IMG/VR virus record: IMGVR_UViG_3300012346_000380
Span: 192,445 to 256,444 of that record
Length of the DNA: 64,000 nt
Strand: one strand, 5' to 3'
Source: a virus
Taxonomy: Duplodnaviria > Heunggongvirae > Uroviricota > Caudoviricetes
The notes beneath the pieces were generated by a model that had not been told where the DNA came from, ran no database searches, and was given only the letters and a program-made list of their open reading frames with translations. A program made the translations under genes and the position numbers. Below are positions 3,682 through 54,861 of the stretch, one piece after another (the first letter of the stretch is position 1; each line of letters begins with the position of its first letter).

Positions 3682-4134
3682 TTATTTTATTATTAAGTAA
3701 TTTAAAACTTGTTCCCAGTTTTCAAAATTAGGTTGACCAAACTGAATCCATTGACCTTTGAATTCTGCAGCACCATTATTAGGTCTATCATCAATAAGAT
3801 AATCACCCATTAAAAGATCCTTTCTGTGAGAAAGTATAAGTCTTTTGTGTGCTAATTTACCCATGTGTTTTTGAACCCAACGTCTTTTAGAACTCCAAGA
3901 CTCTGCATTTGACCATGGCGCTGTGCTTAAAAAGTAAACTTCGTACTGTTCCATAAGTATTTTAACAGCATCTAGAGCTCCTTCGATAGGCTCTGGATTC
4001 TCAAACAACTCTTTATCTACTGATGTTAATCTTCCTAAGTGTCTAACAGCATCTGGTCCGTGTCTTTCGATTGCGTGAGCTTCTAAATCAACCATTACTC
4101 CGTCTAAATCGATATAAACTATTTTCTTGTCCAT
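3682..4134 (-). CDS. 5'(3')-deoxyribonucleotidase, HAD superfamily (NT5C-like)
   Basis: YIDLDGV motif I, LSTAPW, KDLLMGDYLIDD; start moved to MDKK because the upstream extension overlaps a promoter. Confidence 0.85.
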   Translation of the reverse strand: MDKKIVYIDLDGVMVDLEAHAIERHGPDAVRHLGRLTSVDKELFENPEPIEGALDAVKILMEQYEVYFLSTAPWSNAESWSSKRRWVQKHMGKLAHKRLILSHRKDLLMGDYLIDDRPNNGAAEFKGQWIQFGQPNFENWEQVLNYLIIK

Positions 4135-4140
4135 CTTCTT

Positions 4141-4200
4141 GTTTTTAATTATAATGTAAATATACAAAAAAAAGCCCAAATAAAAAAATATTTGAGCATT
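4141..4200 (-). promoter_or_regulatory. Class 1 (putative early) promoter repeat
   Basis: - strand TTTTTTA-N~16-TATATTTAC-N-TAATTAAAAAC; one of 12 copies. Confidence 0.7.
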
Positions 4201-4222
4201 TATTTTAAAAATTTAATGATTT

Positions 4223-4942
4223 TTATGAATTGGCCTTAATCCATTCTTTACCAATACGGTTTTGTAATGGTTTATTAAGTAATTTATTAATAGCGCCTGC
4301 CATTTTATCAAAGTGTTCAGTTCCAGAGACTGAATTGTCAACAATGATTAAGTTATCTCCACCAAAAATAGTTTGGAAGTGACCTATATTGTTTTGTACA
4401 TTCTGCCAAATTTCTTTAACCATTTCTTCAGGTAAAGATCTTGATCTAGCTGCATTTCTTTGTAATGCAACTTCTAATGAAGTATTAACAAAAATCATAT
4501 AACAATCATAACCATAAGCTTCAATTGCTCCTTTTTTAGCTGCAATTTTCTTATAATCATCGCCTGTACCATCAATGATCATACCTAATCTACCTTCTAA
4601 GTATAATTTTTGCTTTAAAGTAGTAACTCTTTTAGCTTTACCTCTTGGCGAATCTTCACCAGATGTTAATTCTGTGAATTTCTTAGGGTCCATAGTAGCT
4701 AAATCCTTTGGATCAACTCCCATGTTCTTTAATTGTACTTCAAATGCTTGATCTGAATTAATAACTTTAAGACCGTTTCTATATGAAATGCTTTGAATAC
4801 CATTCTCAGGTACACCAAACAATTCTTCAGCAGCTCTTGATTTACCAGAACCTGGTCCTCCAGCCATGAAAAATGCCTTTAAGATATTTTTATCGTGCAC
4901 ACCTTCATTAATAAACTCTTCAAATAATTTAACTAGCTTCAT
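4223..4942 (-). CDS. Zeta-toxin/AAA_33-like P-loop kinase with shared leader
   Basis: MKLVKLFEEFINE; GGPGSGKS, INSD, IIDGTG, LEVALQRNAARSR. Confidence 0.75.
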   Translation of the reverse strand: MKLVKLFEEFINEGVHDKNILKAFFMAGGPGSGKSRAAEELFGVPENGIQSISYRNGLKVINSDQAFEVQLKNMGVDPKDLATMDPKKFTELTSGEDSPRGKAKRVTTLKQKLYLEGRLGMIIDGTGDDYKKIAAKKGAIEAYGYDCYMIFVNTSLEVALQRNAARSRSLPEEMVKEIWQNVQNNIGHFQTIFGGDNLIIVDNSVSGTEHFDKMAGAINKLLNKPLQNRIGKEWIKANS

Positions 4943-5496
4943 TTTAATTTACCGTATATTCTTTTTGTAATTCTTTTACCAGCTTTTGATAAAAATCTTG
5001 TGTAATAGCCATTTTCAGTGAATTCTGGCTTTTTATCTAATCCAACGACATCTTCAATCATTTCTTTGTCTGTAATAACGGGAGCTTTGGCTTGACTCAA
5101 TAACTCTTCCATTCTTAAAGAAGCTTCTATAAACCACCCTTTAGTATTAACTAACTGTAAAAGTTTTTTAACAATATCGGATTTAGCTTCTTTTTTACCA
5201 TTAGTACCTAACAAAGCTATTTTATTGCCCCATTTAGTAGGCTTGTATATGATAAAAGCATCTGCTTGATGATCTGAGTCTACATCTTTTAAGGCAGTTG
5301 CTTTGTATTTTGCTTGCATTTCTTCCCAATCATCAGCTGATAAATCCATACCAGCATCTAAATATGTTTTAGTGTACATAGCCCAAATTGATTCCATGCC
5401 TTCTTTGTCAATCTTCTTAAGATCCATGTCGACCCACTTATTAGAAGGTATTTCGAATTCATTTAAGAATTGTTCAAATAATTTAACTTTCTTCAT
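4939..5496 (-). CDS. Putative internal head protein with shared leader
   Basis: MKKVKLFEQFLNE. Confidence 0.7.
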   Translation of the reverse strand: MKKVKLFEQFLNEFEIPSNKWVDMDLKKIDKEGMESIWAMYTKTYLDAGMDLSADDWEEMQAKYKATALKDVDSDHQADAFIIYKPTKWGNKIALLGTNGKKEAKSDIVKKLLQLVNTKGWFIEASLRMEELLSQAKAPVITDKEMIEDVVGLDKKPEFTENGYYTRFLSKAGKRITKRIYGKLK

Positions 5497-5497
5497 A

Positions 5498-5848
5498 TTA
5501 TTGAGGTAATCTTACCATTGTATTTCTTGTTTCACTCTTGTCTGTGTTTTTTACAAAACCATGATCTTTGTAAAACTTTTCTAATCTAGATGTTGAAGTG
5601 GCTCCAAAATCTTTAGAAGGTGTTAAGTATATTTTTAAACCTTTAGAATCAGCGTAAGTGTTAATTTGTTTCATGATTTCTGAACCAATACCTTCACCTC
5701 TTTTATCTTTTGGAATAACTATTCTTGACAACTCTAAAAATTTACCATTGTCATAAAGATCTAAGTCAATGCCATATTTGTCTTCTAAGTCTCTTAAAAC
5801 AAATTGACCTTCATTGATAAATTCTTCGTATAATTTAATGTATTGCAT
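5498..5848 (-). CDS. GNAT acetyltransferase with shared leader
   Basis: MQYIKLYEEFINE; acetyl-CoA motif RGEGIGS; LEKFYKDHGF. Confidence 0.8.
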   Translation of the reverse strand: MQYIKLYEEFINEGQFVLRDLEDKYGIDLDLYDNGKFLELSRIVIPKDKRGEGIGSEIMKQINTYADSKGLKIYLTPSKDFGATSTSRLEKFYKDHGFVKNTDKSETRNTMVRLPQ

Positions 5849-5849
5849 A

Positions 5850-6218
5850 TTACTCTACCTTTCCATCATTACCATCCATTGCATCATGAACAGCGTTTAA
5901 GTTTTCTAAAGAAACAGTTAGTTGAGAATACATCCAAGATTCTAATTGTTCACCTTTAGTCATTCTGTCCTTGATCATATTTGCATAGTCTGCAATTCTT
6001 TCAAGTTGACCTAAAGTCATTTCATTTAATTCAGCCAAAGTATCTCTACCTTCAGCTTCAGCCAATGATTCCTGTGCTGCTTCCCATCCTTCTTCATCTG
6101 GATAATCTTCATCACCTGGTTTTGCCGGAGCTTCACCTCTTTTTCTTTTTGCATGAATATTAGCCCAAAGACCTTTCTTTTCATTTGCAAAATCATCAAA
6201 ATTAGTTACGTGTTTCAT
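5850..6218 (-). CDS. Putative internal head protein with shared leader
   Basis: MKHVTNFDDFANE; GLWANIHAKRKRG basic motif. Confidence 0.65.
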   Translation of the reverse strand: MKHVTNFDDFANEKKGLWANIHAKRKRGEAPAKPGDEDYPDEEGWEAAQESLAEAEGRDTLAELNEMTLGQLERIADYANMIKDRMTKGEQLESWMYSQLTVSLENLNAVHDAMDGNDGKVE

Positions 6219-6757
6219 TATAGATTAATCTTTGTTTTTGTACCATCTGGTTGGGAATAGACTATATATTTAGGTTTAAGCTCCTTTTTAGTATCGTCTA
6301 GCATTTCAATGTATTTCTTACCTAAACCAGATTTTAAATAAGCAACTGTCATGTGTGGGTGATAGTCTGGATAATCTGTTGTGTGTGGTAATTTACTAAG
6401 TTCAGCATTACAATCGTGTAAGCTTGGACCTTCTACATCGTATTTCAACACATCAAACTTTTCATTTTCAAAAAGAGATGCATTTGTAATCGTACAATTG
6501 CCAAAAACAAAGTTTTTAGCTATATTTTCAATCACTTCAAGTTTTACATCATCATGTAAGCCATAAAGTAATGTGCAATGCGGTTCAGTTTCTAGGCCAA
6601 ATGTAGCATCTTTAGGATCTATAAAGACATCTTCTTCGTCTATTTGTTTATGTAAGTTTTCCATTTCAGGAAAATCAAAGTACAACATAGCACAACCATA
6701 ATCATACACTTTTTTCTTTTCAGTCACGAATTCTTCGAATAATTTTATATGTTTCAT
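6218..6757 (-). CDS. 2H phosphoesterase (Acb1/T4 gp57B-like fold) with shared leader
   Basis: MKHIKLFEEFVTE; two HxT motifs (HCTL, HMTV). Confidence 0.8.
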   Translation of the reverse strand: MKHIKLFEEFVTEKKKVYDYGCAMLYFDFPEMENLHKQIDEEDVFIDPKDATFGLETEPHCTLLYGLHDDVKLEVIENIAKNFVFGNCTITNASLFENEKFDVLKYDVEGPSLHDCNAELSKLPHTTDYPDYHPHMTVAYLKSGLGKKYIEMLDDTKKELKPKYIVYSQPDGTKTKINL

Positions 6758-6769
6758 CTTTTAAATTTA

Positions 6770-7069
6770 TTATGCACCAAAATCTAAGTCAAGTGTATCA
6801 TCCTTTTCATCATCATAATCTCCGGTTAAATCAACATCTTCTAAATCTATACCTTCAACTTTAATCTTCGGTCTAAAATGACCATCTCCGTCAAAATATG
6901 CTTTAAAGCTTCTACCAGAACCTACAGCACCGCACCAATGCATAAAAGCAAACATTTTTAAAAAATCATCTGCCGTTGATTGGTCAATATTAGAAATAGT
7001 TACATTTAAGGTAACTGTTCCGTCTTCCGCTTCTGTTAAGAAGTTTTCAAATAGTTTAATGTGTTTCAT
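6770..7069 (-). CDS. Putative internal head protein with shared leader
   Basis: MKHIKLFENFLTE. Confidence 0.7.
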   Translation of the reverse strand: MKHIKLFENFLTEAEDGTVTLNVTISNIDQSTADDFLKMFAFMHWCGAVGSGRSFKAYFDGDGHFRPKIKVEGIDLEDVDLTGDYDDEKDDTLDLDFGA

Positions 7070-7833
7070 TATTTCTTGTTTTCTTTTTTATCGTAATATT
7101 CCCAAACCTCATCTAATTGTTTAGGATCTGCTAACCAGCTTTCCCACCAGCCTCCACCTTCTTCTTCAACTAAAGAACCATCTTTTAATTTACGATATTC
7201 TTTTTCTTTAACTGCAATTTTAAAAGTTTTTGGTGTAAATGGAAATGATTTAATATAATGCATACAACCAATTTGTTCTTCGCTGCCCTCAGTTATACTA
7301 ACATGACCTGTAAAACCATAATCTTTTCCTTCAGGAATCCATACGATTGAATCTAAGTAATATGGTTGACCTTCTTTACCTTCTTTGAAAACCGAACTAA
7401 GTCTCATATTTTGAAAAGTTCCAGTGCCTTCTTCAGCGTCTTCGTATATTGAACAATCTGACCATTCTTCGTCTGTTCCCATGATTCCTTCTCCAAGTGG
7501 CTCCTGCGCTAATAATTTCTGTAACACTTGAACAATAACTGCACTCGTAAATGGAGCTGAGCCACCGCTTTGACCAGAATCAGCAAATTTCTTTACTAAT
7601 GCCATTACTTCAGGCACAAACTCTTTAATAATTGGAGTCCCACCTTCACCTTTACCTTCAGCATTTTTCATCATAAGATCCAATTCAAATTGAGCCTTAT
7701 CGACTAATCCTTCATTGATAGAATCAACAGAGATCATCTTAACACCTTCGTGTAAGAATTTAATTAGCTGAAATTTAACTTTGTTTTCGATTGATTCTGC
7801 TAAGAATTCTTCGAATAATTTAACTGTTTTCAT
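7069..7833 (-). CDS. Putative internal head protein with shared leader (first gene of array)
   Basis: Start reassigned to ATG at 7833: MKTVKLFEEFLAE. Confidence 0.7.
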   Translation of the reverse strand: MKTVKLFEEFLAESIENKVKFQLIKFLHEGVKMISVDSINEGLVDKAQFELDLMMKNAEGKGEGGTPIIKEFVPEVMALVKKFADSGQSGGSAPFTSAVIVQVLQKLLAQEPLGEGIMGTDEEWSDCSIYEDAEEGTGTFQNMRLSSVFKEGKEGQPYYLDSIVWIPEGKDYGFTGHVSITEGSEEQIGCMHYIKSFPFTPKTFKIAVKEKEYRKLKDGSLVEEEGGGWWESWLADPKQLDEVWEYYDKKENKK

Positions 7834-11702: not shown

Positions 11703-13325
11703 TTAATTTTTAAATTCTCTATATTGTGATTCTATGGCTGAAATTCCACTTAATTGTGTAGCCATTGATTCTTCAAACATACCTAAATTAAACTTGGCAA
11801 AGAATATATCGTTTAAGAATATATCTGCGCCGTCCCATGTTGCATGTTTGTATCTGTCTATTAAATATCTTCTAATTTTCTGTGGAAACATAATCATCTG
11901 AGCACCTATGATTCTATTAACCAAATGAGTGTCTTCTATTTTCTGTAAGGTTTCACTTTGTAAACCATCGCCTTCTAATAAAAACCTAGAACCAAATGAA
12001 AAATAAGAAATGTCATTCTTAACAATCGATTCAGCAGCTTTGTCTATTTTTTGTAATGCTGTTTTCAAATCAACTTCTAACATAGCATCACCTTCACAGA
12101 CAATAAAAAAATCTGTATCTTCTGTAAAGTGTTCGATTGTTGCATCAGCAAAAGCTCTAAAGGCGCCATAATGTCCTGGTCTAATTGGTATAGAGTCGTA
12201 TTGATCTGGTCTAGTAAAAGTTTCTCTTGGTGGTGTTTCAGTCCATCGCTTATTCCAAACTTGAATATACTCAACTCCTATACGTGATAATTCTGAAATT
12301 GACTCTATAGATTTTGTTTGTCTGTCTTGATCTAAATCATCTTCTAATAACAAATGAACTAGTTTGATTTTAGCCTTGACATTATAATGTGATAAAACAG
12401 CTTCGAATACTTGATCTACTGAAGGATGACATTCAAATGTTGGTTTTCCTTCTAAACAATAAACTTGCGGTGGCACACCATGAATAGATCCATGCACTTT
12501 AACATTATATTTCATGTTAGATGAACAAAACAAATCACATGAGCCTTTTACATATTGATATTTGTAAGCTTGTGAACCTTGTCTGTAAGGTGCTCTTAGT
12601 TTTGGATCAATTGAACTACCTAATTGAATAAGATTAACATCTGTAGTTCCTGCCACATGTAAAATACCTGAGTCCATTGTAACTACGCACATGGCTTGAT
12701 TATTCATCATCCATCTTAATTCAGCCACGTCATTATCTGGATCATCTAACAAATTAACACCGTATCTAATATGTAAATCCATTACTGGTTTGTCAACGTT
12801 AAAGAAACCTTGTTCTTTACCACTTCTACCAACTGCCACAACTGGAATTCCTGCGTCGAATAATTTGTCTATTAAAGCTTGCCATTTTTCTTGAGCCCAA
12901 GTTCTTGATTCCCAAGTATATGTTGGATGTATCATCACATAGGAGCTGACTGGCAGCTCACGTTTTCTTTCAATATACAAATCAGTTTCCATTTCTTGTT
13001 CAGTCAGGGCAAATCCCTGTGATACGGCATGAAATTGTCGGATGTCCATGTTAGAATATCTCCACTCTATGGTTTCACCGTTATGTAATTGATATGATTT
13101 ACCAACAAGTGGCATAAACATTCGATGCACTTTACGAAAGTGATTTAGATCTGTTGATTCTGGTCTAGAAATATGTGAAAATGAAGGATGGCCTTCAAAT
13201 AAGTAGGGATGGTTTGTTATGATATGAACCTCTTCATTATCATAAGCTTTTGCTATCTTTTTACAAGCTGGAATTGCAGCAATTGTATCTCCAAGTGCAA
13301 GCGTATCAATAAAGACTCCTATCAT
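11703..13325 (-). CDS. GT9 (heptosyltransferase-like) glycosyltransferase with a second GT-A-like domain
   Basis: LGDTIAA, TMDSGILHVAG, Cys cluster; C-terminal VCEGDA. Confidence 0.7.
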   Translation of the reverse strand: MIGVFIDTLALGDTIAAIPACKKIAKAYDNEEVHIITNHPYLFEGHPSFSHISRPESTDLNHFRKVHRMFMPLVGKSYQLHNGETIEWRYSNMDIRQFHAVSQGFALTEQEMETDLYIERKRELPVSSYVMIHPTYTWESRTWAQEKWQALIDKLFDAGIPVVAVGRSGKEQGFFNVDKPVMDLHIRYGVNLLDDPDNDVAELRWMMNNQAMCVVTMDSGILHVAGTTDVNLIQLGSSIDPKLRAPYRQGSQAYKYQYVKGSCDLFCSSNMKYNVKVHGSIHGVPPQVYCLEGKPTFECHPSVDQVFEAVLSHYNVKAKIKLVHLLLEDDLDQDRQTKSIESISELSRIGVEYIQVWNKRWTETPPRETFTRPDQYDSIPIRPGHYGAFRAFADATIEHFTEDTDFFIVCEGDAMLEVDLKTALQKIDKAAESIVKNDISYFSFGSRFLLEGDGLQSETLQKIEDTHLVNRIIGAQMIMFPQKIRRYLIDRYKHATWDGADIFLNDIFFAKFNLGMFEESMATQLSGISAIESQYREFKN

Positions 13326-13347
13326 AGTTATAACATTTATATGTTAT

Positions 13348-13374
13348 TTATATAAAAAAGCTGGGCTTTGTTTA
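13348..13374 (-). promoter_or_regulatory. Class 2 promoter AAAC-N17-TATA
   Basis: TAAAC-AAAGCCCAGCTTTTTTA-TATAAA; one of 12 copies. Confidence 0.6.
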
Positions 13375-13830
13375 TTCGAAAGAGTCTAAAATAATTTGTA
13401 AATCTGTGTAGCAATCATCTATATGTTTGTAAATAGATTTTTCTTTGATACAAGTTTCACTAAATTTATAAATGTATTTGTTTGATTTTAAATCTTTAAG
13501 AGCACACATGATTTTATATTTTGGCTTCTTAGATAATAAAGATTTAAGGTGAGTAACAGACCATGTCTGTGCTTTGGCTTTACCAACAACAGCATAATCT
13601 ACTTTAACCATGGCGGTTAATTGGAAATCTGGATTGTCTAACGTAGCAAAATCATAGTATTGCTTGAATCCATTTTTTATAATAAGTAAACCATAGTAAA
13701 CTGAATCGCTTGACTCTAAAACCTTTTTCAAGGAATCTGAATCAAGCGATTCTGTTAAATAAAATGGTGGTAAGTTAACTTGAATTTTTTCTAGAACATT
13801 AAGCTCCTGTAAATCCTGTTGGTCTTGCAT
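13372..13830 (-). CDS. Hypothetical protein
   Basis: ORF track. Confidence 0.6.
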   Translation of the reverse strand: MQDQQDLQELNVLEKIQVNLPPFYLTESLDSDSLKKVLESSDSVYYGLLIIKNGFKQYYDFATLDNPDFQLTAMVKVDYAVVGKAKAQTWSVTHLKSLLSKKPKYKIMCALKDLKSNKYIYKFSETCIKEKSIYKHIDDCYTDLQIILDSFE

Positions 13831-14569
13831 CGTCTTCTAATTTAATATTTCTCTTTTCAGAACTTTTATTAATTAATCCTCCTTTAACTTCATTTCTTTT
13901 AGCAAGATATTCATTAAGATCATCTTCATTTTTGATAACCTTTGCGTATGTTTCCACTGAAGGTTCTTCTTCAACAGTTAAACCTAAAATAGATTCAGCT
14001 GATTCTTCAGAACTAATTCCATGTAAACCAGAATCATCTGGTCCATAATTTCCTTTAGGTCCTTCTAAAACCTCTGAAGAAGGTGATACGATTAATGGCT
14101 CATTAACTTCAATGTCTTTTAATTCCTTTGTTTTTTCAGGTTTAATGTAATCAACTAAAGATTTAATAAAACCTAATGCAACTAAAGGTAAAATAGCTCC
14201 TGAAACAAAAGATAAAATTCTCTTTTGATATAAAGGATCTTCTTCAACTAAGTTGAATAATTGAACCCATGAATCATAACCATTTAAATTTTTGAATGCG
14301 TAATACATGTTACCTTGCATTTGCATTAAAGTAATGGTGATGAATAAGGCCCATACTAAGCTTTTATTCATTTTATCTAATGCAATTAAAGATGCAAGAG
14401 ATGCTGCAGCTCCAACTTCAAACGCAATAGCTAAAGAAACTGCCAACCAATATGGGTTTGACATACTAAAGAAATCTATAACGTGAATTGTTGAAATTAT
14501 TGAAACTATTAAGTATAGCATCACAAAGGTAGAGATTACAAATCTATTAACCAAAGTTTGTTGTGTCAT
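13799..14569 (-). CDS. Multi-pass membrane protein
   Basis: About 4 hydrophobic helices; start probably MTQQT. Confidence 0.65.
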   Translation of the reverse strand: MTQQTLVNRFVISTFVMLYLIVSIISTIHVIDFFSMSNPYWLAVSLAIAFEVGAAASLASLIALDKMNKSLVWALFITITLMQMQGNMYYAFKNLNGYDSWVQLFNLVEEDPLYQKRILSFVSGAILPLVALGFIKSLVDYIKPEKTKELKDIEVNEPLIVSPSSEVLEGPKGNYGPDDSGLHGISSEESAESILGLTVEEEPSVETYAKVIKNEDDLNEYLAKRNEVKGGLINKSSEKRNIKLEDDARPTGFTGA

Positions 14570-14753
14570 TGTCTTCTGTATTTTTTTTACTATAAGGCCA
14601 CATTTCGTTCCAGTCTTTTTGTCTTTCACTACATCCGCAATCTTCTGCTCCTAATGCATTTGCAACCTTTTTGGCAACTTTATCCAAACCTGTAGCTTTC
14701 GTGAACTTTGCTACAGTGTCACCGAATCCTTCAGATTTTTCTTCAATTGGCAT
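14547..14753 (-). CDS. Small phage protein with CGC motif
   Basis: GFGDTVAKFTKATG...DCGCSERQ. Confidence 0.6.
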   Translation of the reverse strand: MPIEEKSEGFGDTVAKFTKATGLDKVAKKVANALGAEDCGCSERQKDWNEMWPYSKKNTEDNDTTNFG

Positions 14754-15025
14754 TATTTTTCTAATTTTTTTATCTCTTGATCGATTTCAGTTTGACGTTG
14801 CACATCTAACATTTTTCTGTCAGTTGCTTGGATCATTCTTTTTTCTGCTTTCAAACCTTCGATTTGAAGTTGTTTTTGAGTAGGCAGAGAATCAATAACA
14901 GTTAAATGTTTTTTAACTTTGGTTAGTTCTGAGTCAATACTACAAGATTTCACATACGTTAAAAACAATAAAACGATAATTACCTTAATGCCATGTTTGG
15001 CTAAAAAATTGTTTAATTTATCCAT
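14753..15025 (-). CDS. Membrane-anchored coiled-coil protein
   Basis: N-terminal TM then helical region. Confidence 0.55.
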   Translation of the reverse strand: MDKLNNFLAKHGIKVIIVLLFLTYVKSCSIDSELTKVKKHLTVIDSLPTQKQLQIEGLKAEKRMIQATDRKMLDVQRQTEIDQEIKKLEK

Positions 15026-15058
15026 GATTAGATTTTTTATTTTTTTGTATATATTTGA

Positions 15059-15793
15059 TTAAAGTTGTTTAAATGCCGCTAATCTTTCTTGGAACAGTTT
15101 AAAATAGATTTTAATATCTGCTTCGCTTAATTTAAATATTTGTGGACATGATTCTGGTTCACTTGCAATCCAAATTTCAACGCCTCTTGGTCTAATACCA
15201 GTTCTTTCCCAATAAGCTATAACATAAGCTGAAGCTTGTATAAAATAGTCTTGGATCCAACGTTCTTCTTTTGGCTTTCTAGAATTCTTATAGTCAATAA
15301 CAACAACCGTATCATCTATCAACTCTGAAACATTATCTACAGTACCTGCGTAACCGCCAGCTTTAACTGACCACAAAAACTTTTCAGCTGCTAAAACCGT
15401 CTTAACTCTATCGAAAAAATAACTAGAATTGTTGTAGAACTTCATAAAGAATTCAAAGCCTTGATCGATATAGGTTTGATCAAAGTCTGTAATTTCTTTA
15501 TCGTTTATCATCAAAGTTTTGAGCATTGCTAATCTGTCTTCTTTAGAACCTTTAAGTGGTTTATAAAGCTCAATTAATCGGTGCATGACAGTTCCTCTGT
15601 TCATAGAATTGGTAGAAATGCGATTAGCTTCTTCTTCACCAACTTTAGCTTTCCATTTGTCTAAGCCTGATTTGTCTGATGTTTGACCGAGAACTGCGGT
15701 CACTGACGGAAATGTGCCAAGAATTTTAGAGCCTTGACTTACTTGATAGTGTCTAATACCATCTATCTCAACTCTTTTAATCTTTTCTTTCAT
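15059..15793 (-). CDS. PD-(D/E)XK exonuclease (Cas4/MGME1-like)
   Basis: PSVTAVL, RGTVMH, YAGTVD...IDYKNS, QASAY; start likely MKEK. Confidence 0.85.
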   Translation of the reverse strand: MKEKIKRVEIDGIRHYQVSQGSKILGTFPSVTAVLGQTSDKSGLDKWKAKVGEEEANRISTNSMNRGTVMHRLIELYKPLKGSKEDRLAMLKTLMINDKEITDFDQTYIDQGFEFFMKFYNNSSYFFDRVKTVLAAEKFLWSVKAGGYAGTVDNVSELIDDTVVVIDYKNSRKPKEERWIQDYFIQASAYVIAYWERTGIRPRGVEIWIASEPESCPQIFKLSEADIKIYFKLFQERLAAFKQL

Positions 15794-16248
15794 TAAGCCG
15801 CCAATTGTTGTACTGTTGCTGTAAGCCAAGCCCAAGGTACATATTTAAAAGCTAACCAAGCAATGCAAACTGCTATAACTGTTACAGCTGTGCTTGTAAC
15901 AAATTCACCAAGTTCTACATAATCTCTTTCTGGCCAAAGAATAATTAAATACGAGTTTGAACCTTCAATTTTTTGAATTTCAGGAAATGAACTATCAGCC
16001 ATACCATATTTCATTAAGATATTGGTTAAAGGACCTAATTGACCTAACACATAAGATTGTTGCATTAATTCAGGTTGTGTTAGCAATTCTTCTTTAAGAT
16101 TAATAACCGTGTAAATTCTACCTAAATTATCAACTCTTAAACCTTCTGCTTCTATTTCAGTTTTTAAAGATATTGCTGCTTTGCGGTACTTATAAAGCAA
16201 TCTTAGTTCTTTAAAGAAGTTGTACCAGTATGAGAAAATATTAATCAT
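15793..16248 (-). CDS. Hypothetical protein with C-terminal TM
   Basis: ORF track. Confidence 0.6.
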   Translation of the reverse strand: MINIFSYWYNFFKELRLLYKYRKAAISLKTEIEAEGLRVDNLGRIYTVINLKEELLTQPELMQQSYVLGQLGPLTNILMKYGMADSSFPEIQKIEGSNSYLIILWPERDYVELGEFVTSTAVTVIAVCIAWLAFKYVPWAWLTATVQQLAA

Positions 16249-16297: not shown

Positions 16298-16328
16298 AAA
16301 AAAGCTCAATTCTAAGAACTGAGCTTTA
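16298..16328 (-). terminator. Intrinsic terminator after tRNA-Gly
   Basis: AAAGCTCA...TGAGCTTTTTT. Confidence 0.6.
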
Positions 16329-16331
16329 GTG

Positions 16332-16404
<73 letters not shown>

Positions 16405-16491
16405 ATTTGGGTAGGTCAGACGCGTTCTGCCTACCGAGACCTTGTCGTTGACTTTCGTCAGAGCGGACCAAGACACTTTTTAATAATAAGC

Positions 16492-16626
16492 AGGATGGGC
16501 TTTTATACGTGCTCTACCAACTGAGCTACTCTGAACGTGCCACTTAAGGCTGTGTTCAAAGGCCGGATTCGAACCGACGACCACGAGGTTAACAGCCTAG
16601 TTTTTATGGATTGCTGGAACCATCCT
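16492..16626 (-). ncRNA. Circularly permuted tRNA-Asn-like RNA in stem-CAGCAA scaffold (YrlA-like architecture)
   Basis: 3' tRNA half precedes 5' half; closed by AGGATGG/CCATCCT. Confidence 0.75.
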
Positions 16627-16642
16627 TGTATAATTAATAAAC

Positions 16643-16699
16643 GGAATACACATTGGTTTGAGTAAAAGTCAAAGTTTGTAAATTTGCTGTAGGTATTCC
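16643..16699 (-). ncRNA. Stem-CAGCAA RNA carrying a Lys(UUU) anticodon stem-loop mimic
   Basis: GGAATAC/GTATTCC stem, ACAGCAA, TTTGA-CTTTTAC-TCAAA. Confidence 0.6.
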
Positions 16700-16709
16700 A
16701 ATAATTTTC

Positions 16710-16849
16710 AGGTTTCTATTGTTTTGACCAGCGCGTCTACCAATTTCGCCACACTCCAATTTGATTTAAATTTCGTTGGAGAGGTAGGACTCGAACCTAC
16801 ACGTCTTTCGACACCGGTTTCTTATAGAATTAATTGCTGTAAGAAACCT
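16710..16849 (-). ncRNA. Circularly permuted tRNA-Leu-like RNA in stem-CAGCAA scaffold
   Basis: Variable arm and T arm precede D arm; closed by AGGTTTCT/AGAAACCT. Confidence 0.75.
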
Positions 16850-16858
16850 TTAATGTTT

Positions 16859-17023
16859 TTATTTTACAGTCGTTGTATCAACTGTAACAGTGTCTACTTG
16901 TGCAGAATCAACCTGAACTGCTGTAGAATCAGCTGTTTCAGTTTTTGAAGTTGCTCCATTACCACAAGAAGCGATTGAGATTGTTGCTACGATAGCTGCG
17001 ATTGCTAAAAATACTTTTTTCAT
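16859..17023 (-). CDS. Small Bacteroidota-type lipoprotein (54 aa)
   Basis: Manual translation MKKVFLAIAAIVATISIAS-CGNG...; lipobox; D-S/T repeats. Confidence 0.75.
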   Translation of the reverse strand: MKKVFLAIAAIVATISIASCGNGATSKTETADSTAVQVDSAQVDTVTVDTTTVK

Positions 17024-17092
17024 TTTTAATTTGTTTTAGTTTTAAATTTAATTGTAAAGATTATACCCTTAAAGTTGGCTTTGTTTCAAAAA

Positions 17093-17269
17093 TTAAGCCT
17101 CTTTGTTTTTCTCAGAAACATCAACTCTTACTGCTTGAGCTAAAGCTTTAATATCTTGCATTGCTTTACGAACTCTGGTTCCAGCTGCTTTGTTTCCTTT
17201 TTCGAAAAATTTAGTTGCGTCTTCTTTGATTGAGTTAAGAATCTCTTCGATCTGATTTAAATTTTGCAT
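17093..17269 (-). CDS. Histone H1-like nucleoid protein (Hc1 family, 58 aa)
   Basis: Manual translation ...DATKFFEKGNKAAGTRVRKAMQDIK... Confidence 0.8.
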   Translation of the reverse strand: MQNLNQIEEILNSIKEDATKFFEKGNKAAGTRVRKAMQDIKALAQAVRVDVSEKNKEA

Positions 17270-17343
17270 GTTTTTTAATTTTTTAATTAATAATTATACT
17301 GGTAAAATAAAAAAGGTTTCATCGTTAAATGAAACCTTTTTTG

Positions 17344-17417
17344 TGGAGATGACAGGAATCGAACCTGCGACCCTCTGCGTGCAAGGCAGATGCTCTAGCC
17401 AACTGAGCTACATCCCC
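17344..17417 (-). tRNA. tRNA-Ala(TGC)
   Basis: GGGGATG...CT TGC AC...cloverleaf. Confidence 0.95.
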
Positions 17418-17494
17418 AAGAGAGTTAGGACCTGAGACTTCTGCTATCTAGAATTTCTGCTGCTCCGTCCATACTCTTAGTCTTTTAAAAAAAC

Positions 17495-17550
17495 AGGATG
17501 CTATGTTTTGCTTTTCCATATAAAGTTTTTAAATTTGCTGGAAGCATCCT
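17495..17550 (-). ncRNA. Stem-CAGCAA RNA, short copy
   Basis: AGGATGCT/AGCATCCT stem, CCAGCAA, CAAAACA tail as in other copies. Confidence 0.55.
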
Positions 17551-17561
17551 AATGTATGTGA

Positions 17562-17780: not shown

Positions 17781-18398
17781 TTATTTTTGTTTCAAACTTT
17801 TTTTAAGCCATTTGATTGGCATTATTTCTGGATAACTTTTTAATGGTCCTTCTTTTCTTTCAGGATGCCATTGCACACCTAAATAAATGTCTTCTTTGCC
17901 TATAAAAGCTTCTGTTAAACCATCTAACGAAACATAAATAACTTTTAATTCATCGCTTAGATATGAACAATATTGATGGTGTCTTGAATTAACCATGAAA
18001 ATATCACCAGTTTCCGTGCTTTTGATCCAATGATAATGTGATTTTTTCTCGTGGTGATCATCGTCATCTTTAAAATCATCAGCTTGGTGATCTTCAACTA
18101 TTAAATTATCTATGTCTTTGACTTCTCCACCTAAAAAATAATTTAAGAGCTGCATACCTCGACAAACACCTAAGATTGGCAATCTTTCTTTTATAGCTTG
18201 ACTTATTAATCCAATTTCAAATGCATCTCGATTTTTATTAGCACCAATATCTGGTCCTCCGCATAAAACTAAAGCTCCTTCGATAGAATCATCTTTATTT
18301 AAAATTTTAATTTCAAAATCTTCACCTAACCAATTTAAATAGTTTTGTATCTCTATTTTACTTTTTGGTGGTGCTAGGCTTATTTTGGGTTTTGACAT
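17781..18398 (-). CDS. Class I glutamine amidotransferase (peptidase C26/PuuD-like)
   Basis: LGVCRGMQLLN, VNSRHHQ, GVQWHPE. Confidence 0.85.
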   Translation of the reverse strand: MSKPKISLAPPKSKIEIQNYLNWLGEDFEIKILNKDDSIEGALVLCGGPDIGANKNRDAFEIGLISQAIKERLPILGVCRGMQLLNYFLGGEVKDIDNLIVEDHQADDFKDDDDHHEKKSHYHWIKSTETGDIFMVNSRHHQYCSYLSDELKVIYVSLDGLTEAFIGKEDIYLGVQWHPERKEGPLKSYPEIMPIKWLKKSLKQK

Positions 18399-18842: not shown

Positions 18843-20135
18843 TTAAAAGTTTCTTTCAGTTTCGTAAATTGCTTTAATAGTTGGAAATCTTAAACTAATT
18901 CCACCGTTTTGATTGTGTGATTCTTCGAAGTATTGAATAGTTACTTGTTTGCCAAGAATTGCATCTGGGTTTTCTTTATATAATCTTCTTTGTTCAAGAC
19001 TAAATCCAGATCCAACGTCAACTCTGTAACCTTTATGCTCAATTACAATATTACGCATTACATCTTCTTCAACTTCTTTACCGTCTACAATAACTCTAAA
19101 TGGACCGTTCTGTACATCTATTACTACGTATTCAGCATCGTAAAACTGTTTTACTTTAAGTACATCGTTGCTTCTTTTGCCTTGATATGGTGCATCTTTG
19201 CGTAACATAAGTCCTTCCCAAGCATTTTCTTTGGCTAATCCAATATAATAGGTTAGCATTCTCTCGTCAATTAGTAATTTTTGCTCTAGATAACCAATGT
19301 TTTTAAATTCTCTTTCAAAGAAAAGATTGTCTAATTGCACGTTTCTGATTGAAAAACTTGTTGTACCTTCTTTGTTAACGAATTCTTCTAATGTTAAAAT
19401 ATCAAACATGTAAAAGAAAGGATTTTCAATCGTGTGATCTTTGCGTTTAATTTCTTTAATGATACCTTGAAAATTCTCATTACCATTTTCGTCTAACATA
19501 CAAATTTCGCCATCAATGACCATATTTTTAAGGCCTAATGAAATGATCTCAGCATCTAAATTTTTAAGAGTCATGAATTCATTACCAGCTCTTGAAAAAT
19601 ACTTAGGCTCGCCATTTTCATCAATGATACAGATACAACGACAGCCATCTAATTTACGACTCACATACCAATTATCTTCATTAAGGTTAACCTTCTTAGC
19701 CATTTTCTCATCAAAAGAATTAGCTAAAGCAACGTCAAATGTTGGAATCAGCCCAGGAATCACTTTGTTGATCATGGACGCAGTCGCTCTTGTCTTTAAG
19801 TTTCTGTCTATGATGTTGAAGATAAGCTCCTCGTGTCTCTTATTTGCAGCCACAAAGCCATTTACTGCGCTAATTGCATTATGGCCAGTTAGATGCCTAG
19901 AATTTAGATCATTTAATATATCAAACAAAGAAGAATAACCATAACTTGAAAGATGACTAAGCTTCTTACAGTTTTCTGAAGTTACACCATATTGTTTGAA
20001 TGTATTGTATGTGTATTCTAAAGCCTTTCTAACAGATTCATTATCTGCATATTTCTCAAGCACTTTTAATTTGTCTGTGTTTGAATTGGTAGAATTTTGA
20101 GCATCTATAAACTCTTGTATTTCGTCTAAGTACAT
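18843..20135 (-). CDS. lig: ATP-dependent DNA ligase
   Basis: KLDG motif I, IDGEI, FDIL, EGLMLRK, LKVK, VGSGF, SLRFP. Confidence 0.95.
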   Translation of the reverse strand: MYLDEIQEFIDAQNSTNSNTDKLKVLEKYADNESVRKALEYTYNTFKQYGVTSENCKKLSHLSSYGYSSLFDILNDLNSRHLTGHNAISAVNGFVAANKRHEELIFNIIDRNLKTRATASMINKVIPGLIPTFDVALANSFDEKMAKKVNLNEDNWYVSRKLDGCRCICIIDENGEPKYFSRAGNEFMTLKNLDAEIISLGLKNMVIDGEICMLDENGNENFQGIIKEIKRKDHTIENPFFYMFDILTLEEFVNKEGTTSFSIRNVQLDNLFFEREFKNIGYLEQKLLIDERMLTYYIGLAKENAWEGLMLRKDAPYQGKRSNDVLKVKQFYDAEYVVIDVQNGPFRVIVDGKEVEEDVMRNIVIEHKGYRVDVGSGFSLEQRRLYKENPDAILGKQVTIQYFEESHNQNGGISLRFPTIKAIYETERNF

Positions 20136-54270: not shown

Positions 54271-54861
54271 TGGTCACGACAGGATTCGAACCTGCAATTT
54301 CCAAAGAATAGAAGTATCTCGAGTTCGTTCTATTCCCTTTGAGGAAGTGTCACCTTTTACACCACGCAACCAATATTAGTGTCTTTACATGGGATTCGAA
54401 CCCATAATCTTCCGGACTAATAAAACCGGCGTTCCTAGCCAATATTAAACTACGTAAAGCAATCAATTAAAATTACAGAAATTAGTGACGTCAAATCTCT
54501 TTAAGCTATGTGTAATCTTAATCGTTAGGAAGATCTTGCTGATCAGGCATCTTCTTTGCTGATTAGAATGGATTCGAACCATAATCCTGAGCTCCAGTAA
54601 CGGTCTCCGTGCGCCTTTACACCATAATCAATCGTCAGTTTCGAACCTGACAGTTCTAAGTTAATTACTCTTAGAATTTGTAATTATGATTGGATTCGAA
54701 CCAATTTCAGCTTTGCCATAAAGAGTCGATTTCAACTCAACCTTGGGGAGGTGCCGCCAACCAATGGCCTCATAATTATTTGTTGCGATTAAAGGACTCG
54801 AACCTCTGTTGGGTATATCTACCGATACGGCTCATGAGACCGTCAATGCACCTGCATCGCA
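54271..54861 (-). ncRNA. Five aberrant tRNA-like RNAs (54271-54371, 54381-54460, 54559-54630, 54681-54778, 54783-54861)
   Basis: Each has acceptor-like stem and GGTTCGA(A/G)TCC T arm but a non-canonical anticodon or D arm. Confidence 0.6.

What the first reader, a model, noticed from the sequence alone, without database searches (positions are those of the whole stretch)
16492..16626. Circularly permuted tRNA-Asn whose halves rejoin into a complete cloverleaf
Seen (- strand): AGGATGG-TTCCAGCAA...AAAAACT-[AGG CT GTT AA CCTCG TGGTC GTCGG TTCGAAT CCGGC CTTTGAA C]-linker hairpin-[TTCAGAG TA GCTC AGTTGGTA GAGC A CG]-TATAAAAGC-CCATCCT. The 3' half comes first. Joining the 5' half (ending CG) to the 3' half (starting AGG) restores a perfect CGAGG/CCTCG anticodon stem, with a break at position 28/29. 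Known: permuted tRNA genes occur in some algae and archaea, and bacterial/phage YrlA Y RNAs have the same T-arm-before-D-arm tRNA mimicry tied to a Ro60-binding stem. Inference: either a new Y-RNA-like family or a permuted tRNA that is processed and ligated. No Ro60/TROVE gene is visible in this window.
Basis: partly seen in the sequence, partly recalled or inferred. Interest (0 to 1): 0.85.

Follow-up and report, generated by a model that had tools for sequence, protein, structure and literature searches.

The report
Phage Y-like RNA mimicking asparagine tRNA
This 135-base phage RNA gene is a complete asparagine tRNA written in rearranged order with its amino-acid end sealed shut, mounted on a conserved "handle" shared by hundreds of phage small RNAs that travel with a Ro60-shaped protein, so it is most likely a tRNA look-alike partner RNA and not a working tRNA.

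Summary
On the minus strand of 16492-16626 the 3' half of a tRNA-Asn(GTT) precedes the 5' half. Rejoining them gives a cloverleaf that ARAGORN calls tRNA-Asn; the native order gives nothing.

It is not a one-off. It belongs to a large phage RNA family with this layout:
- a 7-10 bp closing stem;
- CAGCAA;
- a split anticodon stem;
- a T arm;
- a closed acceptor hairpin;
- a D arm.

All helices covary, and so does the tertiary 15-48 pair. The window holds three further handle RNAs at 16642-17551.

The handle travels with a DUF2828/DUF7788 protein. This phage encodes one 196 kb away on the map, with a fifth handle RNA just behind it. Its predicted fold matches only Ro60 at full length.

The closest known thing is YrlA, the tRNA-like Y RNA, but YrlA membership fails: 34.5 against 69 bits, no GNCGAA motif, no Pfam TROVE hit. 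I read it as a new variant of the Ro60/Y-RNA theme. A cut-and-ligated true tRNA is unlikely but not excluded, because the phage has Rnl1- and Rnl2-type ligases.

This scan has already noted the same handle family in at least 82 other genomes and in this one. I found it in neither Rfam nor the papers searched. Binding and expression are untested.

The parts
16492..16626 (-). Whole 135-nt RNA: CAGCAA handle carrying a circularly permuted, closed tRNA-Asn(GUU) mimic
   Evidence: Sequence; model R1 97.1 bits; conserved in related phage contigs
16620..16626 (-). Closing stem, 5' strand (AGGATGG)
   Evidence: Pairs with 16492-16498. The helix is 94% paired with double changes at all 7 pairs in 47 relatives; a closing stem was a filter when those relatives were chosen
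16492..16498 (-). Closing stem, 3' strand (CCATCCT)
16611..16616 (-). Invariant CAGCAA motif, 3 nt after the closing stem
   Evidence: Kept in 43-50 of 53 relatives (by position) that were not retrieved through the motif; the model's own preference for the motif is a caveat
16586..16598 (-). Anticodon hairpin AGG-CUGUUAA-CCU (anticodon GUU at 16591-16593), lower 3 bp of the anticodon stem
   Evidence: In the family 114 of 139 loops are 7 nt, with U33 in 85 of 114 and a purine at 37 in 109 of 114
16584..16585 (-). CG of the 3' half that pairs with CG (16508-16509) at the end of the 5' half: upper 2 bp of the split anticodon stem (break 28/29)
   Evidence: Helix 3: 88% paired; pair types AU/GC/CG/UA all present
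16562..16578 (-). T arm (GUCGG-UUCGAAU-CCGGC)
   Evidence: 99.6% paired
16529..16561 (-). Acceptor stem closed into a hairpin: 7 bp plus a 19-nt loop holding a GCC/GGC mini-hairpin; no free 3' end, no CCA
   Evidence: 91% paired in the family; compensatory GCC/GGC to GUC/GAC in L001
16508..16526 (-). D arm (GCUC-AGUUGGUA-GAGC), A26 and C27 G28
   Evidence: the 15-48 Levitt pair covaries in the family
16642..16700 (-). Sister handle RNA (59 nt): closing stem + CUA-CAGCAA + a hairpin with loop CUUUUAC (Lys-UUU-like anticodon arm)
   Evidence: conserved in L002 and L004
16710..16849 (-). Sister handle RNA (140 nt): permuted class-II (Leu-like) tRNA body whose anticodon loop is replaced by the handle
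   Evidence: R1 58 bits; compensatory changes against L004 in the anticodon stem, D stem and variable arm; exactly absent from a 99%-related phage
17494..17551 (-). Sister handle RNA (58 nt), short form
   Evidence: (27 bits through the handle)
16301..16404 (-). tRNA-Gly(GCC) and the terminator-like hairpin that probably end the same transcript
   Evidence: Co-transcription is inferred, from the promoter-like site at 17060-17089 through a 54-aa ORF and the three RNAs

Best explanation
The element is a small non-coding RNA gene of a 256-kb phage. Shown: the RNA can fold into a full L-shaped tRNA-Asn look-alike in circularly permuted order. The T arm, D arm, GUU anticodon loop and all tertiary-contact bases are intact. 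The acceptor end is sealed into a hairpin, so it cannot be charged. The chain ends emerge from a break in the 5' strand of the anticodon stem and pair into a 7-bp closing stem followed by CAGCAA. Also shown: this stem plus motif is the common handle of a large phage RNA family, and that family is genomically tied to a Ro60-fold DUF2828/DUF7788 protein which this phage also encodes. Inferred: the handle docks the RNA on that ring protein, as Y RNA stems dock on Ro60, and the tRNA-shaped part is the payload. Further inferred, with less confidence: the particle presents a non-chargeable tRNA-Asn to proteins that recognise tRNA, either as a bait for host tRNA-cutting defence enzymes or as an adaptor that brings tRNA-handling enzymes to the ring. 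The setting is a phage that invests in tRNAs (26 found: 23 in the window, 3 at 1.4-1.6 kb of the genome) and in RNA repair (Rnl1- and Rnl2-type ligases).
For: Structure: (cloverleaf on rejoining); 91.7% of cells paired against 63% in shuffles; covariation score 0.725 against 0.19; about 40% paired when partners are slid; the 15-48 tertiary pair is G-C or A-U in 107 of 139 against 63 +/- 5 in shuffles. R1 gave 166 hits at E<1e-4 in 100 loci. Protein link from the RNA side: a DUF2828+DUF7788 protein lies in 40 of 119 RNA-chosen loci, and elsewhere in 28 of 47 further records, including 13 of 16 near-complete ones. The background is 710 of 50,697 cultured phage records. Protein link from the protein side: in 80 loci chosen by the protein alone there are 84 stem+CAGCAA elements on the gene strand, against 5 on the opposite strand and 5 in shuffles; 50 of the 84 lie within 500 nt of the gene. 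This genome: the protein is at genome 12758-14185, and a handle RNA begins 16 nt after its stop. Fold: AlphaFold2 model with pLDDT 80.8; the top 12 listed PDB entries are all Ro60/TROVE (E 2e-8 to 2e-4, TM up to 0.62), and the DxSxS MIDAS motif is invariant. Cultured phages: Felix O1 and Mycobacterium phage Vetrix have 4 and 3 unannotated handle RNAs directly after the gene, one permuted tRNA-like in each. A Felixounavirus homologue of the protein family, Bas63 gp130, is reported to be Ro60-like and to counter the Ppl defence (10.1101/2024.10.10.617714); I did not check that gp130 itself is the same family.
Against: This copy is not beside the protein gene: it lies 196 kb away on the map, about 60 kb across the terminal repeat. 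Three complete or near-complete records with the RNA lack a DUF7788 hit. The handle carries neither the YrlA GNCGAA motif nor a proven bulged helix. In a 99%-related phage this RNA has CTGCAA in place of CAGCAA, so the motif is not strictly required for the gene to be kept. The bait or adaptor role is inference only.
Confidence: 0.62

Rival explanations
1. A true permuted tRNA gene. The handle is cut away on both sides of the 28/29 break, the nick in the anticodon stem is sealed by a phage RNA ligase, RNase P and a 3' nuclease open the acceptor loop, CCA is added, and a working tRNA-Asn results.
For: Rejoining gives a flawless cloverleaf with every canonical base. The break lies inside a duplex, the substrate type of Rnl2-like nick-sealing ligases, and the phage encodes Rnl2-like and Rnl1-like ligases. 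In the family, positions 74-76 of the acceptor loop read CCA in 28 of 139 members, against about 2 expected.
Against: The sister RNA at 16710-16849 uses the same handle but has no anticodon loop, and short sisters carry only a hairpin, so the handle is not an intron-like spacer. In the family, 72 of 139 acceptor loops are 8 nt or shorter, and the loop hairpin here shows a compensatory change. The discriminator is C73, where E. coli AsnRS uses G73 (my own knowledge) and the phage's own tRNA-Asn has G73. There are already two ordinary tRNA-Asn(GTT) genes. There is no bulge-helix-bulge motif, no splicing endonuclease and no RtcB. Family anticodons include identities that do not fit the body, such as UGA on class-I bodies.
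Confidence: 0.08
2. A structured tRNA-mimic RNA whose handle serves something other than the Ro60-like protein: another phage or host protein, or only end protection and processing. The gene linkage would then reflect a shared tRNA/RNA-repair island and not binding.
For: This copy lies in the tRNA cluster, far from the protein gene. Three complete or near-complete records carry the RNA without a DUF7788 hit. The handle differs from every Ro60 site described.
Against: Same-strand clustering within 500 nt of the gene, in phages whose proteins share only 48-89% identity with this phage's protein, and in Felix O1 and a mycobacteriophage. This is the pattern that defined Y RNAs beside Ro60 (PMC4201824).
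Confidence: 0.22
3. A dead remnant of two tandem tRNA-Asn genes (3' half of one, spacer, 5' half of the next), or a DNA-level site such as a phage attachment core, with no RNA function.
For: Tandem tRNA genes are common in this phage, and such a pair at genome 1488-1605 even fools the model.
Against: The two truncation points coincide to the base. A closing stem brackets the unit. Between phages about 80% identical in flanking proteins, only 2 changes fall in the tRNA-like part against 5 in the handle linkers, while the neighbouring tRNA-Gly was replaced. There is family-wide covariation, including the inter-half helix. No integrase lies nearby.
Confidence: 0.03

Closest known systems
YrlA, the tRNA-like Y RNA of bacterial and phage Ro60/Rsr (Rfam RF02553; Chen et al. 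2014, PMC4201824)
   Same: The 5' and 3' ends pair into a stem with a short conserved motif on the 5' side. The interior is a tRNA mimic in the order T arm, closed acceptor hairpin, D arm, with a covarying 15-48 pair. Family members are encoded beside a Ro60-fold protein, often several per genome.
   Different: The motif is CAGCAA, not GNCGAAN0-1G. The partner protein is DUF2828/DUF7788, which Pfam TROVE does not detect. The anticodon arm is kept, so the mimic is a whole tRNA, and the handle leaves from a nick in the anticodon stem. The Rfam score is half the gathering threshold. The same handle also carries bare hairpins.
Thermus phage phiLo Ro60 with Yrl1/Yrl2 (PMC12135203; PDB 9KOP, 9L5Y)
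   Same: A phage-encoded Ro60 ring with phage-encoded partner RNAs next to its gene. It is the best structural match to this phage's protein.
   Different: The phiLo RNAs were picked by a CGAA motif and are not described as tRNA mimics. Sequence identity of the proteins is about 16-17%.
Circularly permuted tRNA genes of red and green algae and of Thermofilum (my own knowledge; reviews PMC3400036, PMC4238349)
   Same: The 3' half is encoded upstream of the 5' half, and rejoining gives a normal cloverleaf.
   Different: Those transcripts end in a bulge-helix-bulge motif, are circularised by the splicing endonuclease and ligase, and are then opened by RNase P and tRNase Z to give used tRNAs. Here there is no such motif or enzyme, the acceptor hairpin looks maintained, and sister RNAs cannot yield tRNAs.
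Class I RNAs of Dictyostelium (Rfam RF01414; PMC7919456)
   Same: A short terminal stem followed at once by CCUUACAGCAA. The short sister RNAs here give weak RF01414 hits.
   Different: They are eukaryotic and 42-65 nt long, with no tRNA part. Scores of 19-22 bits fall below the 41.5-bit threshold, and this element itself gives no hit. A link to a DUF2828 protein was not tested here.
Bas63 gp130, a Ro60-like counter-defence protein (PhageMaP preprint 10.1101/2024.10.10.617714)
   Same: It is reported to be Ro60-like and sits upstream of a tRNA cluster. The authors guessed that some of those 'tRNA genes' are Y RNAs.
   Different: I did not check that gp130 belongs to this protein family; other Felixounavirus proteins do. 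The partner RNAs were not identified there. The defence countered (Ppl) is thought to act on DNA, which does not obviously call for a tRNA mimic.

Membership tests
YrlA (Rfam RF02553) | Score at or above the curated gathering threshold (69 bits) | tested here: not met
   34.5 bits, and the alignment rests on the T/acceptor/D part only; not listed at the gathering threshold
YrlA (Rfam RF02553) | GNCGAAN0-1G motif near the 5' end (presumed Ro60 contact; PMC4201824) | tested here: not met
   The 5' region reads AGGATGG-TTC-CAGCAA-TCCATAAAAACT; no such motif
YrlA (Rfam RF02553) | tRNA-like domain in the order T arm, acceptor-like hairpin, D arm, with a covarying 15-48 pair | tested here: met
YrlA (Rfam RF02553) | Encoded next to a TROVE-domain Ro60 gene | tested here: not met
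   No PF05731 match in the complete genome. A Ro60-fold DUF2828/DUF7788 gene exists but lies 196 kb away on the map
YrlA (Rfam RF02553) | Bound by Ro60 in vivo; carries tRNA-type modifications | not testable with these tools
   Needs pull-down and modification mapping
CAGCAA-handle RNAs beside DUF2828/DUF7788 (defined in this scan, not in Rfam or the papers searched) | Terminal closing stem of 7 bp or more, then 0-3 nt, then CAGCAA on the 5' side and an A-rich 3' linker | tested here: met
CAGCAA-handle RNAs beside DUF2828/DUF7788 (defined in this scan, not in Rfam or the papers searched) | The genome encodes the Ro60-fold DUF2828/DUF7788 protein | tested here: met
   PF25043 at 185 bits and PF11443 in one 475-aa ORF; Ro60 fold
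Permuted tRNA genes (algal/archaeal type) | 3' half upstream of 5' half; halves rejoin into a cloverleaf | tested here: met
   ARAGORN on the rejoined sequence
Permuted tRNA genes (algal/archaeal type) | Bulge-helix-bulge motif formed by the transcript ends, and a splicing endonuclease to cut it | tested here: not met
   The ends leave a nicked anticodon stem through 21- and 9-nt single strands; no PF01974 in the genome
Permuted tRNA genes (algal/archaeal type) | A mature, ligated, CCA-ended, chargeable tRNA is produced | not testable with these tools
Indirect signs argue against it: C73, a maintained loop hairpin, sister RNAs without anticodon loops
Canonical tRNA (RF00005) | Collinear cloverleaf detected by tRNA finders | tested here: not met
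   No ARAGORN or Rfam tRNA call at 16492-16626
Dictyostelium Class I RNA (RF01414) | Score at or above 41.5 bits | tested here: not met
   No hit on this element; 22.1 and 19.0 bits on the two sister RNAs

The most novel reading that the evidence does not exclude
The phage keeps a rack of baits. Each handle RNA displays one tRNA or one anticodon arm (here Asn-GUU, a Lys-UUU-like arm and a Leu-like body) on a Ro60-like ring, to capture or mislead host enzymes that cut or deplete particular tRNAs. The phage's own ligases may mend cut baits or cut tRNAs. The same stem-plus-CAGCAA handle in Dictyostelium Class I RNAs would then point to an old, unrecognised branch of Ro/Y-type particles shared by phages and eukaryotes.
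Probability: 0.2. Interest if true: 0.9.

Novelty: new variant of a known kind. Interest (0 to 1): 0.74.

Why it matters
Y RNAs and Ro60 are well known in animals and in a few bacteria, but what the tRNA-like part of a Y RNA is for remains open. Here the mimic is a whole tRNA with a readable anticodon. The family shows many different anticodons on one constant handle, which makes the question testable: which tRNA-binding proteins are caught by which payload? The protein partner occurs in about 1.4% of cultured phage genomes, including Felix O1, Felixounaviruses of E. coli K-12 and mycobacteriophages, and a Felixounavirus Ro60-like protein already has a published anti-defence phenotype. The RNAs are unannotated in the two cultured phage records I examined (Felix O1 and Vetrix), so experiments are within easy reach. 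Practically, these genes are missed by tRNA finders and by Rfam, so phage annotation currently leaves them as empty intergenic space.

Tried and rejected
1. Rfam at the gathering threshold shows nothing at the element; at E<=10 there is only a sub-threshold YrlA hit.
2. Pfam TROVE, RtcB and the tRNA splicing endonuclease are all absent from the genome.
3. blastn against cultured phages returned only ordinary tRNA matches.
4. An exact search of 596 Gb of cellular genomes for the unpermuted junction sequence, to find a source or host tRNA-Asn, gave 0 hits.
5. The R1 hit at genome 1488-1605 proved to be two adjacent ordinary tRNAs, not a member.
6. A possible sixth handle RNA after the Ro60-like gene (GGATCGG-TA-CAGCAA...) does not fold better than shuffles (z = 0.18), so I left it out.
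7. I tested whether the bases after CAGCAA pair with those before the 3' closing strand, which would make a bulged helix like the Ro60 site. They pair no more than composition predicts (mean 2.38 against 2.31).
8. The hexamer CAGCAA alone is not enriched in the window (36 against 35.9 expected); only the stem-plus-motif combination is.
10. The profile search against PDB sequences gave only weak vWA-region hits to Ro60 (E 0.03-0.05); the fold search was needed.
11. Supplementary tables of Chen et al. 2014 are not held. I therefore could not check whether any phage RNA they called YrlA is in fact a CAGCAA RNA.

Full report
**What is there.**
- The window is the last 64 kb of a complete 256,444-bp phage record with terminal repeats. 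It is rich in tRNA genes, 23 in the window.
- A 7-bp stem (AGGATGG/CCATCCT) brackets the unit. Inside it, in order, come:
  - TTC-CAGCAA and a 12-nt linker;
  - the 3' half of a tRNA-Asn: the lower three pairs of the anticodon stem with loop CUGUUAA, then CG, the variable loop, the T arm and the 3' acceptor strand;
  - a 19-nt loop with a small hairpin;
  - the 5' half: acceptor strand, U8 A9, D arm, A26, C27 G28;
  - a 9-nt A-rich linker.
- Cutting the two halves out and joining them in the normal order gives a 73-nt sequence that ARAGORN calls tRNA-Asn(gtt). The native order is invisible to ARAGORN and to the Rfam tRNA model.
- Every base used for tRNA tertiary contacts is canonical.

**It is a family, not an accident.**
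- Reading upstream showed three more units with the same frame, a closing stem followed within 3 nt by CAGCAA:
  - 16642-16700, 59 nt, carrying a hairpin with a Lys-UUU-like loop;
  - 16710-16849, 140 nt, a permuted Leu-like class-II tRNA body with the handle in place of the anticodon loop;
  - 17494-17551, 58 nt.
- Related phage contigs keep all four in order. Compensatory changes fall in the anticodon stem, D stem and variable arm of the Leu-like unit.
- One 99%-related phage lacks that unit exactly. In its copy of the Asn unit it shows a compensatory GCC/GGC to GUC/GAC change in the acceptor-loop hairpin and CTGCAA in place of CAGCAA.
Sixty-seven distinct sequences also had a closing stem.
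- On an alignment of 47 of them, 91.7% of cells pair, against 63% in shuffles and about 40% when partners are slid.
These pairs were not used for selection; the closing stem was.
- The tertiary 15-48 pair covaries: 107 of 139 against 63 +/- 5 in shuffles.
- A covariance model (R1) scores the element at 97 bits and finds 166 hits in 100 viral loci.
- The same pattern gives only 42 stretches in 596 Gb of cellular genomes, about 20 of them real. The family is chiefly viral.

**The protein partner.**
- The scan's earlier notes said the handle travels with a Ro60-shaped protein. I tested this in both directions.
- Starting from the RNA:
  - clustering all ORFs in the 119 RNA-chosen loci gave one dominant neighbour, a protein of about 470 aa present in 40 loci, which Pfam calls DUF2828 + DUF7788 with a faint Ro60-vWA hit;
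  - of 47 further records whose fetched flank lacked it, 28 encode it elsewhere, including 13 of 16 near-complete ones;
  - the background among cultured phages is 710 of 50,697 records.
- Starting from the protein:
  - 80 loci chosen by the protein alone hold 84 stem+CAGCAA elements on the gene's strand, against 5 on the other strand and 5 in shuffled sequence;
  - 50 of the 84 lie within 500 nt of the gene.
- This phage encodes the protein at genome 12758-14185 (475 aa). A fifth handle RNA starts 16 nt after its stop.
- An AlphaFold2 model (pLDDT 80.8) matches only Ro60/TROVE at full length. The top 12 listed entries are phiLo phage Ro60, Xenopus and human Ro60 and Deinococcus Rsr (E 2e-8 to 2e-4, TM up to 0.62). 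The vWA MIDAS motif DxSxS is invariant.
- Pfam's TROVE model itself does not detect it.
- In Felix O1, four unannotated handle RNAs lie among the tRNAs right after ORF42. In Mycobacterium phage Vetrix, three lie after the "Ro-like RNA binding protein". In each phage one is a permuted tRNA mimic, and none reaches Rfam YrlA.

**How it most likely works.**
- Shown: the fold, the family, the gene linkage and the Ro60 fold of the protein.
- Inferred: the handle docks on the ring protein as Y RNA stems dock on Ro60, and the payload here is a sealed, non-chargeable tRNA-Asn that keeps a readable GUU anticodon loop.
- The RNA is probably made from a promoter-like site at 17060-17089, together with a 54-aa ORF, two sister RNAs, an 87-nt structured spacer and tRNA-Gly. 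The transcript would end at the terminator-like hairpin at 16301-16327. This is inference.
- The genome's left end, which adjoins the window across the terminal repeat, carries three tRNAs, an Rnl2-like and an Rnl1-like RNA ligase, a phosphoesterase and the Ro60-like gene. The system therefore sits in a tRNA and RNA-repair setting.
- I favour a role in the contest over tRNAs, as bait or adaptor for tRNA-recognising proteins. That step has no direct support.
- One Felixounavirus Ro60-like protein, Bas63 gp130, is reported to counter the Ppl defence, and its authors guessed that some neighbouring "tRNA genes" are Y RNAs. I did not check that gp130 itself belongs to this protein family.

**The rival: a real permuted tRNA.**
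- Points in favour:
  - the cloverleaf is perfect;
  - the break is a nick in a duplex, which an Rnl2-type ligase could seal;
  - 28 of 139 family members read CCA at positions 74-76 of the acceptor loop.
- Points against:
  - sister RNAs on the same handle have no anticodon loop or no tRNA body;
  - 72 of 139 acceptor loops are 8 nt or shorter, and this one holds a hairpin with a compensatory change;
  - the discriminator is C and can pair with the base before position 1;
  - two normal tRNA-Asn genes already exist;
  - there is no bulge-helix-bulge junction, no splicing endonuclease and no RtcB.
- I give it about 8%. The CCA enrichment is better read as a trace of origin from CCA-encoding or circularised tRNAs, or as mimicry of the CCA end.

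**Compared with what is known.**
- It works like YrlA: a permuted tRNA-like domain on a terminal stem, beside a Ro60-fold gene. It fails membership on three tested features: score 34.5 against 69 bits, no GNCGAA motif, no Pfam TROVE partner.
- It differs in keeping the whole anticodon arm.
- It is not the algal or archaeal type of permuted tRNA gene.
- The short sisters resemble Dictyostelium Class I RNAs, a stem followed by CCUUACAGCAA, but score below threshold.
- I found no description of the CAGCAA handle in Rfam 15 or in the papers searched.

**Verdict.**
- This is a real, conserved, structured RNA gene and a new variant of the Ro60/Y-RNA theme.
- The same scan has already noted the family in at least 82 other genomes and in this genome. 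That does not change the score.
- Binding, expression and function remain to be shown, and cultured phages make that easy.

Noticed in passing
window 16710-16849 (-): In the Leu-like sister RNA the 5' closing strand can also pair locally with AAGAAACC in its own linker (9 bp), competing with the terminal closing stem. In the L070 relative this local pairing changes in step (TTTCTTA/TAAGAAA becomes TTCCTTA/TAAGGAA). It may be an alternative fold or a switch. The whole unit is exactly absent from a 99%-related phage (L001).
   Followed up: partly
window 16405-16491 (-): The 87-nt spacer between the Asn mimic and tRNA-Gly is conserved in related phages and holds a hairpin with a compensatory change (GGTAGG/CCTACC to GGTTGG/CCAACC in L002 and L004). 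There is no Rfam match beyond a weak TLS-PK2 hit, and the fold z-score is only -1.25. It could be a processing element or another small RNA.
   Followed up: partly
window 54271-54371 (-): The Rfam tRNA model matches a 101-nt stretch (37.8 bits) that ARAGORN does not call. It looks like a tRNA with an insertion of about 30 nt (hairpin GAATAGAA...TTCTATTC) in the anticodon region, and has no CAGCAA.
   Followed up: no
L226 (genome 1-20000): 4015-5091, 5390-6499, 6967-7632, 12758-14185, 14494-15093: The left end of the genome, contiguous with the window across the terminal repeat, carries an Rnl2-like ligase with a PHA02142 OB domain, an Rnl1-like ligase, a metallophosphoesterase, the Ro60-like gene and a sigma-70-family factor, next to tRNA-Arg, tRNA-Thr and tRNA-Leu.
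   Followed up: partly
L227 (Felix O1, NC_005282.1) 5208-5282, 5378-5440, 5832-5903, 5921-6045: Four unannotated CAGCAA-handle RNAs lie among the annotated tRNAs just after ORF42 ('RNA-binding protein'). The last is a permuted tRNA mimic (R1 53 bits). All four share the longer frame CAGAAGACC...GGTCTGG.
   Followed up: partly
L228 (Mycobacterium phage Vetrix, OL455899.1) about 3922-4182: Three CAGCAA-handle RNAs, followed by a terminator, lie directly after gp55 'Ro-like RNA binding protein'. They sit in a stretch annotated as empty, and the middle one is a permuted tRNA mimic.
   Followed up: partly
window 18843-20135 (-) and 15059-15835 (-): An ATP-dependent DNA ligase and a PD-(D/E)XK nuclease flank the small-RNA cluster. 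A class-I glutamine amidotransferase (peptidase C26 type) lies at 17781-18398.
   Followed up: no
A3 (family alignment): Acceptor-hairpin loops often begin N-CCA or N-UCA followed by U or A (28 and 9 of 139), as if the 3' CCA end of a tRNA had been joined to its 5' end. This hints that these genes arose from circularised tRNAs or from CCA-encoding tandem genes.
   Followed up: partly
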